The position numbers and the translations under genes are program-made. Below, one piece after another: positions 1-1,635 of a stretch of 1,635 nucleotides of DNA. The notes beneath the pieces are model-generated. The model made no database searches. It was not told the origin of the DNA and saw only the letters and a list, made by a program, of their open reading frames with translations. The stretch comes from Naegleria gruberi (taxonomy: Eukaryota), in assembly GCA_000004985.1 (NCBI GenBank), contig GG739364.1, one strand, 5' to 3'. Numbering within the stretch: position 1 is the stretch's first letter; each line of letters begins with the position of its first letter.

Positions 1-710
1 GCTTTGAGATGATAGGGTTCTAATGTTGCAGAATCGGGTGTGAATGGTACTATTAAGTGTACAAGTTGTGGCCAACTAGTGATATTTTCAATCAAATACT
101 CAATAGAGTCACAACCAGAAGCATTCAAGATATTCACATTGGGAAAAAGTAGTGACATTTTTGAATAGGTTTCCTTTCCATCTTGAAGTATGATCAATTC
201 TGACACATTTGGATTGGAATTAAGATTGTCTGGTATCTCTATTTCTGACATCCAGAATACAGTCTTTAAATTTTTACATGACGGTAATGTTGCAATATTA
301 TTTGAATTGACATCAATGGCTTCCACAGAGTTGACAAAGTGTTTGACAATATTCCTTGGGGGATCGGTATTTTTTTCTCCAAGATCTCCCCAATCTTTAA
401 GATTTGGGGCAAGAGTTTGTAAAGAATTAATTAATTTTTCAAATTGTTCATCAGTGAATTCATATGATGGACCAATATCAACAAATTCCAAGTTAGGATT
501 TGGTTTTCCTCCAAAATAGATATCTTCTTCTTGTCTTGAATATTCCCCTTCATACCACATTCTTCGAGCTGTGAAACTTTTCAATTTTGGAAAGTCTCCC
601 AGTCTTTTCAATATCGCACCAGAGATAAATGAAACAGGTTGTACATCTATTTCTTCAATGTTTGATTGTTTTTCCAAGAATTTTCCAAGGCCAATTCTAA
701 TTGACCTAAA
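1..710 (-). CDS. Distal, 3'-partial coding segment of the LRR protein (minus frame 2). It is open from the triple stop TGA-TAA-TAG at 711-719 to the window edge, and the true coding part probably begins near 690.
   Basis: There is no stop in about 236 consecutive codons read off the left edge. It contains an in-frame ATG at 558-560 (MWYEGEYS...). The peptide runs ...RLGDFPKLKSFTARRMWYEGEYSRQEEDIYFGGKPNPNLEFVDIGPSYEFTDEQFEKLINSLQTLAPNLKDWGDLGEKNTDPPRNIVKHFVNSVEAIDVNSNNIATLPSCKNLKTVFWMSEIEIPDNLNSNPNVSELIILQDGKETYSKMSLLFPNVNILNASGCDSIEYLIENITSWPQLVHLIVPFTPDSATLEPYHLK. It is missing from the supplied ORF track only because it lacks a stop inside the window. Confidence 0.7.
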
Positions 711-862
711 CTATTATCACTATTGATAGAAAGTGTTTTCAATTTTGGGCAAAACTTGGAAATAACCTCAAGTAGTTCGTTGCCAACATTTTCGCGGCAG
801 TAATAAAAAGGGCTTCCAGTTTGGACACAAGGGAAGTAATTCAAAAAGAAACGTATTACTAT
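647..862 (-). CDS. Middle coding segment of the same LRR protein in minus frame 3, ending at TAG 647-649. It overlaps ORF 647..844(-) in the track.
   Basis: The peptide ...FPCVQTGSPFYYCRENVGNELLEVISKFCPKLKTLSINSDNSLGQLELALENSWKNNQTLKK fits the cysteine-containing LRR pattern C-x-x-(I/V)-x-x-x-x-L-x-x-L-x-x-x-C-P-x-L-x-x-L-x-L. The TTG start assumed by the track is probably not a real start; the segment reads as an internal piece. Confidence 0.55.
   Translation of the reverse strand: MVIRFFLNYFPCVQTGSPFYYCRENVGNELLEVISKFCPKLKTLSINSDNSLGQLELALENSWKNNQTLKK
668..689. repeat. Imperfect 11-bp tandem duplication. The plus strand reads gtttttccaag / aattttccaag, and the minus strand reads cttggaaaatt / cttggaaaaac.
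   Basis: The repeat is directly visible in the sequence. It coincides with the frame-3 to frame-2 switch of the minus-strand gene. 11 is not a multiple of 3, so one unit changes the frame. Confidence 0.55.
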
Positions 863-1196
863 TCAATCCCTGGTGAATGAGTAAGGTTTTGAGATCTTCC
901 AGAATAGGTACGTAGATAAAATTGTCATCAAAAGCTTCCTCTTTTTCATCGATCGAATCATCAAGTAGTGATGTTAGAATACCTCCTCCCTTTCCCCACT
1001 TTCCTCTACCTCCTCCCACTGGAATGAAAACTTCTTGTTTCAAATTGAGAACCAGTGTTTCTAATTTTCTAGTCTTGGTTAAAATTTTGAAAAGCTTATT
1101 CTTTGTGAGAGGTATGTCGTCAAGTTCCAATTCTTTCAAGTTATAACCCAAAGGTTCATCTTCAATGATTATTCTTGTGGAAGTATCTGAGCTAGT
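768..1196 (-). CDS. Proximal coding segment of the same LRR protein in minus frame 2, ending at TGA 768-770. It corresponds to ORF 768..1151(-) in the track and extends upstream without a stop to the TAA at 1197-1199.
   Basis: The frame-2 peptide reads TSSDTSTRIIIEDEPLGYNLKELELDDIPLTKNKLFKILTKTRKLETLVLNLKQEVFIPVGGGRGKWGKGGGILTSLLDDSIDEKEEAFDDNFIYVPILEDLKTLLIHQGLNSNTFLFELLPLCPNWKPF... It has LRR periodicity plus a Gly-rich loop. Its last ~10 residues (LLLPRKCWQRTT) are probably out of the true frame. Confidence 0.55.
   Translation of the reverse strand, partial: TSSDTSTRIIIEDEPLGYNLKELELDDIPLTKNKLFKILTKTRKLETLVLNLKQEVFIPVGGGRGKWGKGGGILTSLLDDSIDEKEEAFDDNFIYVPILEDLKTLLIHQGLNSNTFLFELLPLCPNWKPFLLLPRKCWQRTT
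981..1020. repeat. A 40-nt polypyrimidine tract on the plus strand, polypurine on the minus strand: acctcctccctttccccactttcctctacctcctcccact, 36 of 40 positions C/T.
   Basis: This is a striking strand-asymmetric GC-rich tract in an AT-rich context. The minus strand here encodes the glycine-rich stretch PVGGGRGKWGKGGGIL inside the LRR protein. The tract is partially mirror-symmetric, with ggaggagg at both ends. Confidence 0.6.
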
Positions 1197-1388
1197 TTAT
1201 GAATTGAATAAATCATCATCTGTAATTTTAATAGGAAGAGTCTCTACTTGCATTTCGAGTATATATTCTTCATCACTCCTAATATCCAAAAATCCATACA
1301 CTATTCTAAAATCCATTCTTTCAAATTTGAGACTGTTTGTTATATCAGTAATTGTAAAAGAGAGCTCTGTTTTCCTTTTCAATTTCCT
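1197..1388 (-). CDS. Upstream coding segment in the same frame 2 as 768..1196, separated from it only by TAA 1197-1199. It corresponds to ORF 1197..1382(-) in the track.
   Basis: The frame opens after TGA at 1389-1391. The peptide is RKLKRKTELSFTITDITNSLKFERMDFRIVYGFLDIRSDEEYILEMQVETLPIKITDDDLFNS*. The ITD..L motif is typical of cysteine-containing LRRs. The first in-frame ATG is at 1315-1317, and the TTG start in the track is an ORF-finder artefact. Confidence 0.45.
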   Translation of the reverse strand, partial: RKLKRKTELSFTITDITNSLKFERMDFRIVYGFLDIRSDEEYILEMQVETLPIKITDDDLFNS

Positions 1389-1449
1389 TCAATAAAACCT
1401 CAAGCTGACGAAAGTTTGACTCTACTATCCAATACCAGAAAACTTTTGT
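1348..1449 (-). other. Short open segment in minus frame 1, bounded by TAG at 1450-1452 and TGA at 1345-1347. It may be a further out-of-frame remnant of the same gene's 5' part.
   Basis: It translates to TKVFWYWIVESNFRQLEVLLKEIEKENRALFYNY, which looks like protein rather than low complexity. It lies directly upstream of segment 1197..1388 but in another frame. Confidence 0.2.
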
Positions 1450-1477
1450 CTATTTTCATGTAAGTTTTAATATTCTA

Positions 1478-1633
1478 GAAAACAAACCTCAACATATTCA
1501 CCAGTGATTTTTTCTCAACTCTTGGGTTATTCAATGTTGGTTTCTTGAATCTACTCACGAAAACCCTACACACAGCTGTATTTACATGCTCGACTATCCA
1601 TTCATAATTTGCCTTTGATGTCATGGCAAGCAT
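1478..1633 (-). other. Short ATG-initiated open segment in minus frame 3 (ATG at 1631-1633 and 1622-1624), ending at TAG 1475-1477. It may be an N-terminal remnant of the LRR gene or an unrelated small ORF.
   Basis: It translates to MLAMTSKANYEWIVEHVNTAVCRVFVSRFKKPTLNNPRVEKKSLVNMLRFVF. At 52 codons it falls below the cutoff of the ORF track. I can recognise no domain in it. Confidence 0.15.
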
Positions 1634-1635
1634 TA

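What the first reader, a model, noticed from the sequence alone, without database searches (positions are those of the whole stretch)
1..1388. LRR-protein gene broken into four or more reading-frame segments: decaying paralog or error-ridden locus
All protein-like signal is on the minus strand and belongs to one cysteine-containing LRR protein. Reading it needs frames 2, 2, 3 and 2 in turn. The interruptions are one nonsense codon, one homopolymer-associated shift and one duplication-associated shift. Two more out-of-frame open pieces lie upstream. This density of lesions in about 1.4 kb is what a young pseudogene of an expanding, rapidly turning-over gene family looks like. LRR/F-box-like families in AT-rich yeasts are known to contain many fragmented members; I cannot tell which family from sequence alone. 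The alternative is an intact gene seen through low-quality sequence. Either way the conceptual repaired protein of about 460 aa or more can be reconstructed from the window.
Basis: partly seen in the sequence, partly recalled or inferred. Interest (0 to 1): 0.6.

Follow-up and report, generated by a model that had tools for sequence, protein, structure and literature searches.

The report
Broken F-box/LRR gene copy, Naegleria
The window is a whole 1.6-kb leftover scaffold of the Naegleria gruberi draft genome (not a yeast) that carries a second, frameshift-riddled copy of an F-box/leucine-rich-repeat gene; this is an ordinary pseudogene or haplotype remnant, and a few of its lesions could be sequencing errors.

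Summary
The minus strand encodes one LRR protein that can only be read by changing frame. The details and the organism need correcting. The window is the complete 1,635-bp Naegleria gruberi NEG-M contig that carries the model XP_002668067.1. A 96.8%-identical environmental Naegleria contig (L001) has the same gene as one uninterrupted 500-codon ORF, and the N. fowleri orthologue aligns collinearly with it. Against that ORF the window has a TAA nonsense codon (1199-1197). It has 1-nt deletions at 819/818, 800/799 and 20/19, and a 16-nt deletion at 693/692, which is not a duplication. It has an in-frame 6-nt deletion at 1167/1166. It also has 1-nt and 2-nt deletions upstream that may be coding or intronic. 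The published model reaches 358 aa only by calling two GT-AG "introns" that cut out conserved coding sequence. The main-scaffold copy (NAEGRDRAFT_49823) appears damaged in a different way, by two large in-frame deletions. The window is therefore probably a real second copy, either a haplotype or a recent duplicate. Single-pass Sanger error cannot be excluded for the 1-nt lesions. The family is FBXL-type F-box/LRR, specific to Naegleria and Willaertia. Interest is low.

The parts
1475..1633 (-). Distal half of an F-box-like exon (MLAMTSKANYEWIVEHV...RFVF), ending in an in-frame TAG at 1477-1475. The TAG is shared with the intact relative, so an intron must follow. The start of the gene lies beyond the right end of the window.
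   Evidence: ORF listed. It is 100% identical to L001 131-291. There is weak similarity to the N. fowleri F-box region LGWILNFLLTGEVLMLSFCSKSMY. The donor TTGAG|GTTTGT at 1488/1487 is the one used by the JGI model.
1384..1466 (-). Linker stretch that is open in one frame in the intact relative (NLHENRQKFSGIWIVESNFRQLEVLLKEI). In the window it is split f2 to f1 to f2 by a 1-nt deletion (TTT to TT, between 1433 and 1432) and a 2-nt deletion (ATTATG to ATTG, between 1382 and 1381). The 2-nt deletion also removes the first ATG of the long ORF. Whether this stretch is coding or intronic is unresolved.
   Evidence: One search shows many GT-AG options of 38 to 179 nt, and some of them would place both deletions inside the intron.
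819..1379 (-). Main N-terminal coding block in frame 2 (KRKTELSF...LLPLCPN). It includes the first LRR units and a Gly-rich loop GGGRGKWGKGGG.
   Evidence: It aligns to P0001 residues 2-190.
1197..1199 (-). Nonsense codon TAA. Both the environmental ORF and the main-scaffold N. gruberi copy have TAT/Tyr here.
   Evidence: (L001 codon 62).
1163..1167 (-). In-frame 6-nt deletion between 1167 and 1166, with two flanking substitutions (IIKTIKDE becomes IIIEDE). It is specific to the window.
799..819 (-). Two 1-nt deletions 19 nt apart: between 819 and 818 (CTTGG to CTGG) and between 800 and 799 (ACATGC to ACTGC). They move the frame f2 to f1 (EALFI) to f3. There is an extra A to G change at 795.
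   Evidence: The N. fowleri protein reads straight through the equivalent region of L001.
695..799 (-). LRR unit read in frame 3 (CRENVGNELLEVISKFCPKLKTLSINSDNSLGQLE).
   Evidence: This is the best-conserved part of the family and the region matched to COI1 and FBXL2.
692..693 (-). Site of a 16-nt deletion (GGATATTACTGATGAA in L001). It removes the conserved D-I-T-D-E-G motif of a CC-type LRR and returns the frame to f2.
   Evidence: P0003 and P0001 both keep LELDITDEGLGKF.
21..692 (-). C-terminal LRR block in frame 2 (GLGKFLEKQSNIEEIDV...PDSATL).
1..20 (-). 1-nt deletion (AAA to AA) between 20 and 19, then 6 codons in frame 1. The last 32 codons or so of the gene lie beyond the left end of the window.
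1192..1487 (-). Annotated 'intron 1' of XP_002668067.1 (296 nt, GT-AG). It is an annotation artefact that steps over three lesions and removes coding sequence shared with the two close copies (P0001 and P0003).
   Evidence: reproduces the 358-aa model exactly from the window. In L001 the stretch downstream of the ATG at 387 lies inside the uninterrupted ORF, and P0003 covers it from MDFRIVY onward. The collinear N. fowleri alignment begins just downstream of this stretch.
711..911 (-). Annotated 'intron 2' of XP_002668067.1 (201 nt, GT-AG). It is an annotation artefact that steps over the two 1-nt deletions and removes two LRR units.

Best explanation
The window is an unplaced mini-scaffold of the Sanger draft genome of Naegleria gruberi NEG-M. 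It holds a second genomic copy of the F-box/LRR gene NAEGRDRAFT_49823, most likely the alternative haplotype and otherwise a very recent duplicate. The ancestral gene encoded an SCF-type substrate receptor: an N-terminal F-box-like helix, about 500 aa of cysteine-containing LRRs, and a conserved VFYYxWLV tail. This copy can no longer make that protein. A TAA stops translation after about 60 codons of the long exon. Behind it lie three 1-nt deletions and a 16-nt deletion that removes the DITDEG motif of one repeat. The copy on the main scaffold seems to be disabled in a different way, by two large in-frame deletions. The gene therefore appears to be decaying in this strain, and the two copies were too different in structure to be merged by the assembler. 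Shown here: the identity of the locus, every lesion relative to an intact orthologous ORF, the artificial introns in the public model, and the FBXL-type fold and family. Inferred: that the lesions exist in the genome rather than only in the reads, that the main-scaffold copy carries the two deletions, and that the relation is allelic rather than paralogous.
For: 1. The 358-aa N. gruberi model EFC35323.1/XP_002668067.1 sits on a contig of exactly 1,635 bp. It is reproduced residue for residue from the window.
2. The window aligns end to end with L001 at 96.75% identity, with 23 mismatches and 8 gaps. L001 has one ORF of 500 codons.
3. The N. fowleri orthologue aligns in a single frame across four of the five lesion sites in unambiguous coding sequence (819/818, 800/799, 693/692, 20/19), so none of those is an intron. 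The TAA site lies upstream of that alignment but inside the uninterrupted ORFs of L001 and P0003.
4. The main-scaffold protein P0003 is reproduced as one uninterrupted ORF if that copy lacks 261 nt (window 1000-742) and 351 nt (window 125 to beyond the left end). No GT-AG pair can generate its junctions. The window therefore holds about 385 nt that the main copy lacks and is not simply bad reads of that locus.
5. P0003 shares all 8 derived amino-acid states of the window relative to L001. It is intact at the nonsense, 6-nt and 16-nt sites, giving 99% aa identity over about 310 codons.
6. A 16-nt deletion, a 6-nt deletion and a clean TAT to TAA change are not typical base-calling errors (inference).
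7. P0003 starts at MDFRIVY, the first ATG left in the window's frame after the 2-nt deletion. This hints that the main copy shares that lesion (inference).
8. Family assignment: the family profile against PDB sequences gives COI1 4.6e-15, FBXL2 2.6e-12, FBXL17 8.9e-12 and TIR1 1.1e-11. The top Foldseek hits are all F-box-LRR receptors.
Against: - No reads, quality values or main-scaffold DNA could be obtained.
- Tiny leftover scaffolds of Sanger drafts are enriched for low-coverage, low-quality reads (own knowledge).
- Five of the eight indels are 1 to 2 nt, and three of those sit in short runs (TTT, TT, AAA).
- Window-specific changes cluster: four events lie in 1163-1199 and three in 795-819, as poor read stretches would produce.
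- Indels are about as numerous as window-specific substitutions, which is unusual for neutral decay.
- dN/dS against L001 is 0.46, which does not show loss of constraint.
- The two deletions in the main copy are inferred from a protein model, not seen in DNA.
Confidence: 0.55

Rival explanations
1. Sequencing or assembly artefact. The underlying genomic copy is intact, or far less damaged, and most or all frame-breaking lesions are single-pass Sanger base-calling errors or a bad read-overlap join in a contig built from two or three poor reads that the assembler could not merge.
For: - The contig is only 1,635 bp, in a Sanger assembly of 1,977 contigs and 784 scaffolds.
- The window is almost identical to the main-scaffold copy at substitution level, and the differences are mostly small deletions.
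- Three 1-nt deletions lie in short homopolymer runs.
- The lesions at 693-819 lie mid-contig, where the tails of reads entering from both ends would overlap. The lesion at 20/19 lies at a contig end.
- Lesions cluster with nearby substitutions.
Against: - The 16-nt and 6-nt deletions and the clean nonsense substitution are not typical miscalls.
- The lesions at 1163-1199, 1382/1381 and 1433/1432 lie 200 to 470 nt from the contig end, where a read would normally be good.
- The main-scaffold copy itself looks damaged, so the locus is plausibly free to decay.
- There are no N or ambiguity codes in the window.
Confidence: 0.33
2. A functional spliced gene as annotated (XP_002668067.1). The two frame-changing regions are genuine GT-AG introns of 296 and 201 nt, and the 358-aa product is real.
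For: The model can be rebuilt from the window with canonical GT-AG borders.
Against: - Both 'introns' consist largely of sequence that lies inside the uninterrupted ORF of a 96.8%-identical relative, and 'intron 2' is also collinear with the N. fowleri protein.
- They delete LRR units and the region carrying the nonsense codon.
- The lesions are deletions relative to the intact ORF, not insertions.
- The median intron reported for N. lovaniensis is 80 bp (PMC6125883).
Confidence: 0.03
3. A real decaying copy that is a dispersed or tandem paralogue rather than the other haplotype of NAEGRDRAFT_49823.
For: - Related paralogues exist in N. gruberi (NAEGRDRAFT_75548 and _71924).
- The two copies differ by several structural lesions.
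Against: - About 99% amino-acid identity and 8 of 8 shared derived states fit alleles or a very young duplicate.
- N. gruberi is reported to be heterozygous (PMC9928731, citing Fritz-Laylin 2010).
- The window has no flanking sequence that could show a different neighbourhood.
Confidence: 0.15

Closest known systems
FBXL-type F-box/LRR substrate receptors of SCF ubiquitin ligases (plant COI1, TIR1 and D3/MAX2; human FBXL2, FBXL17, FBXL5 and SKP2; yeast Rad7 and Dia2)
   Same: - Cysteine-containing LRRs of about 26 aa, with the CPxLxxLxL and xITDxGL motifs.
- The family profile hits these proteins in PDB at E from 4.6e-15 to 1e-5.
- They fill the top of the fold search.
- There is an N-terminal F-box-like helix region, and sources name the N. 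fowleri and N. lovaniensis orthologues 'F-box domain-containing protein'.
   Different: - Sequence identity is only 11-16%.
- The Pfam F-box and LRR models stay below their cut-offs on this protein.
- It has a Gly-rich insert and a family-specific C-terminal VFYYxWLV motif.
- The clade is restricted to Naegleria and Willaertia.
- This particular copy cannot be translated.
NAEGRDRAFT_49823 (XP_002676111.1, UniProt D2VII8), the copy on the 401,612-bp N. gruberi scaffold
   Same: About 99% amino-acid identity over about 310 shared codons. It shares all strain-specific substitutions with the window.
   Different: - It has Tyr instead of the stop, and it keeps KT and DITDEG.
- It appears to lack window 1000-742 and everything from window 125 leftwards.
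- Its C-terminus is read from what is 3' flank in L001.
Haplotigs, meaning unmerged allelic contigs in draft assemblies of heterozygous genomes
   Same: A very short unplaced contig, nearly identical to a locus on a large scaffold and differing from it by indels that block merging.
   Different: Allelism is not shown because there is no flanking sequence. The contig ends inside the second putative deletion, so it does not span the whole 'bubble'.
Fragmented LRR/F-box families of AT-rich yeasts
   Same: AT-rich DNA (33-36% GC) and an LRR protein with frame breaks.
   Different: Wrong kingdom. All relatives that carry an organism name are Heterolobosea, and no fungal name appeared among the named hits.

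Membership tests
F-box/LRR (FBXL-type) proteins | Tandem cysteine-containing LRRs forming a curved beta/alpha solenoid | tested here: met
   - Profile of 13 relatives against PDB sequences: COI1 4.6e-15, FBXL2 2.6e-12, FBXL17 8.9e-12, TIR1 1.1e-11.
- The AF2 model of the intact orthologue shows alternating strand and helix, with pLDDT 80-90 in residues 160-280.
- The Foldseek top 19 PDB hits are all F-box-LRR receptors, E 8e-8 to 3e-5, though TM is only 0.25-0.41.
- Pfam LRR_At5g56370 is below cut-off on P0001 (19.2 against 27 bits). It is above cut-off on relatives P0128, P0132 and P0141.
F-box/LRR (FBXL-type) proteins | N-terminal F-box motif (about 40 aa, LPxE...I..L) | tested here: inconclusive
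   - The window holds only the distal half of the motif (1633-1478).
- Pfam F-box scores 18.8 bits against a cut-off of 20.5 in paralogue P0128, and gives no hit in P0004 or the window pieces.
- UniRef names the N. fowleri and N. lovaniensis orthologues F-box domain-containing. That is the source's own name and was not tested here.
F-box/LRR (FBXL-type) proteins | Binds Skp1 and recruits substrates to an SCF ligase | not testable with these tools
   Biochemical property.
Pseudogene (unitary or allelic, non-processed) | Disabling lesions relative to an intact orthologue, lying in sequence that is coding and not intronic | tested here: met
   Five lesions lie in unambiguous CDS: TAA at 1199-1197, 1-nt deletions at 819/818, 800/799 and 20/19, and a 16-nt deletion at 693/692. 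The comparison is with the intact ORF of L001 throughout, and with the collinear N. fowleri protein for all sites except the TAA.
Pseudogene (unitary or allelic, non-processed) | The lesions are present in the genome, not only in the deposited sequence | not testable with these tools
   No reads or second NEG-M assembly could be reached. The look-up of encoding contigs has no record for either N. gruberi model. No further close proteins were found in the 5.8-billion set.
Pseudogene (unitary or allelic, non-processed) | Relaxed selective constraint | tested here: inconclusive
   dN/dS against L001 is 0.46, from only 22 substitutions, most of which predate the split of the two NEG-M copies.
Haplotig of NAEGRDRAFT_49823 | Near-identity to a locus on a main scaffold | tested here: met
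   Tested at protein level only: about 99% identity over about 310 codons, and 8 of 8 shared derived states.
Haplotig of NAEGRDRAFT_49823 | Same flanking genes or sequence as the main-scaffold locus | not testable with these tools
   The window contains nothing but the gene, and the main-scaffold DNA was not retrievable.
   The window is an N. gruberi contig. All named relatives are Naegleria or Willaertia.

The most novel reading that the evidence does not exclude
Both copies of this F-box/LRR gene in N. gruberi NEG-M are real alleles that are being destroyed independently. One has two large deletions. The other has a stop, a 16-nt deletion and several 1-nt deletions. Indels are as frequent as substitutions. 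That would be a small, concrete example of allele-specific decay, and of an indel-dominated mutation spectrum, in a heterozygous amoeba whose sexuality is only inferred. It would also mean the leftover contig is the reference genome's only record of about 385 nt of the ancestral gene.
Probability: 0.3. Interest if true: 0.3.

Novelty: new member of a known kind. Interest (0 to 1): 0.15.

Why it matters
The value is mainly curation. XP_002668067.1/EFC35323.1 is a gene model stitched together with two artificial introns over a broken reading frame. NAEGRDRAFT_49823 is probably a truncated relic as well. Neither should be used as a representative of this Naegleria/Willaertia F-box/LRR family. The intact form is the 500-codon ORF on ENA contig ERZ929261 k127_392626, or the 645-aa N. 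fowleri protein. The case also shows how a raw-sequence reader can get the structure of a broken gene right while mis-assigning the organism and the mutational mechanisms. If the lesions are real, the locus is a minor data point on allelic divergence in N. gruberi.

Tried and rejected
1. Pfam on the individual open pieces gave nothing significant.
2. The look-up of encoding contigs for the two N. gruberi models, to fetch the main-scaffold DNA, found no record.
3. I tried to reach the main scaffold through the neighbouring gene on L001, an NHL-repeat protein. The search was swamped by thousands of bacterial NHL proteins, and no N. gruberi orthologue was listed.
4. Two scans of JGI metagenome contigs, one with peptide patterns and one with an exact 24-mer, found no further alleles.
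5. The Fritz-Laylin 2010 genome paper and the 2011 review are not held. No paper mentions PRJEB11402.
6. I tested whether the junctions of the main-scaffold model could be GT-AG introns in window-like or L001-like sequence. They cannot.
7. I rejected this because the repeat is also present in the intact ORF and TRF finds none.
8. My initial guess of a Candida IFA-type LRR pseudogene was rejected by the first homology search.
9. There is no Rfam family on either strand. The plus-strand ORFs are antisense shadows that are also open in L001.
10. tblastn of the intact protein against the window bridges the frameshifts inside one low-identity HSP, so it does not display the frame changes. The DNA alignment was used instead.
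Full report
**What is in the window.** The window is AT-rich (29-37% GC). All long open stretches lie on the minus strand. The longest open run is 236 codons, against a mean of 80 and a maximum of 196 in 1000 shuffles. I joined the open pieces by eye and searched the result against the 5.8-billion protein set. It gave four hits:
- An uninterrupted 500-aa protein from an ENA metagenome contig (P0001): E=1.3e-272, 94% identity, 99% coverage.
- Two Naegleria gruberi 'predicted proteins' (P0002, P0003).
- A 645-aa N. fowleri protein (P0004): 29% identity.

P0002 (EFC35323.1/XP_002668067.1, 'partial') lies on a contig of exactly 1,635 bp. I could rebuild its 358 residues exactly from the window. 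The window is therefore a complete mini-scaffold of the Sanger draft genome of N. gruberi NEG-M. That assembly is 40.9 Mb in 1,977 contigs and 784 scaffolds (PMC6125883 and PMC9928731).

**The lesions, one by one.** The reverse complement of the window aligns end to end with the metagenome contig L001 (positions 131-1789). Identity is 96.75%, with 23 mismatches and 8 gaps. In L001 the gene is one ORF, 387-1889. The N. fowleri protein aligns with that ORF in a single frame from residue 228 to 638. That alignment spans four of the window's five frame-breaking sites, and the TAA site lies upstream of it but inside the uninterrupted ORFs of L001 and P0003. None of these breaks can therefore be an intron.

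Relative to L001 the window has the following:
- A 1-nt deletion between 1433 and 1432 (TTT to TT).
- A 2-nt deletion between 1382 and 1381 (ATTATG to ATTG), which removes the first ATG of the long ORF.
- TAT to TAA at 1199-1197.
- An in-frame 6-nt deletion between 1167 and 1166, with two flanking substitutions.
- A 1-nt deletion between 819 and 818.
- A 1-nt deletion between 800 and 799.
- A 16-nt deletion between 693 and 692, which removes the DITDEG motif.
- A 1-nt deletion between 20 and 19.

The 3-nt 'insertion' at 530-532 is shared with the other N. gruberi copy, so it is a deletion in L001.

The frame path is f2, f1, f2 (with the stop), f1, f3, f2, f1. TRF reports no tandem repeat.

**The upstream end.** The piece at 1633-1478 resembles the distal half of the F-box-like region of the N. 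fowleri protein. In both the window and L001 it ends in the same TAG, so an intron must follow. Many GT-AG pairs of 38 to 179 nt would join it to the long ORF in L001. With the more distal acceptors, the 1-nt and 2-nt upstream deletions would fall inside the intron. I therefore count five lesions in unambiguous coding sequence and two of uncertain effect.

**The public annotation.** The JGI model reaches 358 aa only by using two GT-AG 'introns', 1487-1192 and 911-711. Apart from its first 100 nt or so, whose coding status is unresolved, the first lies inside the continuous ORF of L001 and includes the nonsense codon. The second consists of sequence inside that ORF that is also collinear with the N. 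fowleri protein. It steps over both mid-gene 1-nt deletions and removes LRR units. These introns are artefacts of forcing a model over a broken frame.

**The other N. gruberi copy.** P0003 (NAEGRDRAFT_49823, on a 401,612-bp scaffold) agrees with the window at all eight positions where the window differs from L001 in amino acid. It has Tyr instead of the stop, and it keeps KT and DITDEG. Its odd junctions (VGGGSG|MKTLSI and NVNIL|HLLNK) cannot be produced by any GT-AG splice in window-like or L001-like sequence. The whole 349-aa protein is reproduced as one uninterrupted ORF if that copy carries two in-frame deletions. These are 261 nt (window 1000-742) and 351 nt (from window 125 to beyond the stop codon), plus one substitution. 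Its start at MDFRIVY is the first ATG that remains once the ATTATG is lost.

I infer that the strain has two differently damaged copies. I also infer that the window is not merely a poor rendering of the main locus, since it contains about 385 nt that the main copy lacks. This rests on a protein model. I could not obtain the scaffold DNA.

**Real lesions or bad reads?**

In favour of real lesions:
- The 16-nt and 6-nt deletions and the clean nonsense change are not typical base-calling errors.
- Several lesions lie far from the contig ends.
- The locus appears to be decaying in the main copy too.

In favour of artefact:
- This is a leftover contig of a Sanger draft.
- Five indels are 1 to 2 nt, and three of those are in short runs.
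- Window-specific changes cluster at 1163-1199 and 795-819.
- Indels are about as numerous as substitutions.

dN/dS against L001 is 0.46 from 22 changes and decides nothing. My estimates are 0.55 for a real damaged copy (allele more likely than paralogue), 0.33 for a mainly artefactual picture, and 0.03 for the annotated spliced gene.

**What the gene is.** Pfam gives only sub-threshold LRR hits on this protein. A profile of the two full-length orthologues finds 116 cluster representatives at E<=1e-3 and 46 at E<=1e-10. Those with names are from N. fowleri, N. lovaniensis, N. gruberi and Willaertia magna, and several are named 'F-box domain-containing protein' by UniRef. Three relatives pass the Pfam cut-off for LRR_At5g56370 (the LRR of FBD-associated F-box proteins). 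One has a near-threshold F-box.

A profile of 13 relatives hits PDB sequences of COI1 (4.6e-15), FBXL2, FBXL17, TIR1, MAX2, Rad7, FBXL5 and SKP2. An AlphaFold model of the intact orthologue has mean pLDDT 55.7, but 80-90 in residues 160-280, and shows a strand/helix solenoid. Its best PDB matches are the same F-box-LRR receptors.

The ancestral protein is best read as an SCF substrate receptor of the FBXL type, from a clade specific to Heterolobosea. The F-box itself is only weakly supported.

**Verdict.** The thing itself is ordinary: a broken copy of a fast-evolving F-box/LRR gene on an unplaced contig, carrying a misleading public gene model. No RNA family matches on either strand.

Noticed in passing
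window 1475-1488; L001 265-394: The F-box-like exon ends in an in-frame TAG in both the window and the intact relative, so a short intron must follow. Many GT-AG combinations of 38 to 179 nt keep the frame open, and the true one is undetermined. The motif EWIVEH in the exon recurs as IWIVES about 50 codons later.
   Followed up: partly
window 223: The three available copies have three different residues at one codon. The window has CTT (Leu) and L001 has CGT (Arg). The main-scaffold N. gruberi protein has Pro there, but its DNA was not seen.
   Followed up: no
window 982-1020 (minus strand): A Gly-rich insert GGGRGKWGKGGG lies between LRR units. It is present in the N. gruberi-type copies, absent from the N. 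fowleri orthologue, and modelled at low confidence. The left edge of the putative 261-nt deletion of the main-scaffold copy lies inside it.
   Followed up: partly
window 190-519 (+); L001 1271-1600 (-): A 109-aa ORF antisense to the LRR gene is open in both the window and L001. Other antisense ORFs lie at 922-1146 and 1165-1395. They are probably shadow ORFs of an AT-rich coding strand.
   Followed up: no
L001 2338-3234 (+): The gene downstream of the intact copy encodes an NHL-repeat (beta-propeller) protein with a hydrophobic N-terminus. Its best listed matches are bacterial (about 37% identity), and a Naegleria fowleri NHL protein ranks lower.
   Followed up: partly
L001 1953-2111 (+): A 52-codon ORF lies in the 3' flank of the intact gene. 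It supplies the C-terminal 31 residues of the main-scaffold N. gruberi model (HLLNKNHHHPWNISNSK...), which shows that the tail of that model is read-through into former non-coding sequence.
   Followed up: yes
window 1258-1635: The right-hand 378 nt of the window have no substitution at all relative to L001, only the two small deletions. The rest of the window carries 23 substitutions. Divergence along the locus is uneven.
   Followed up: no
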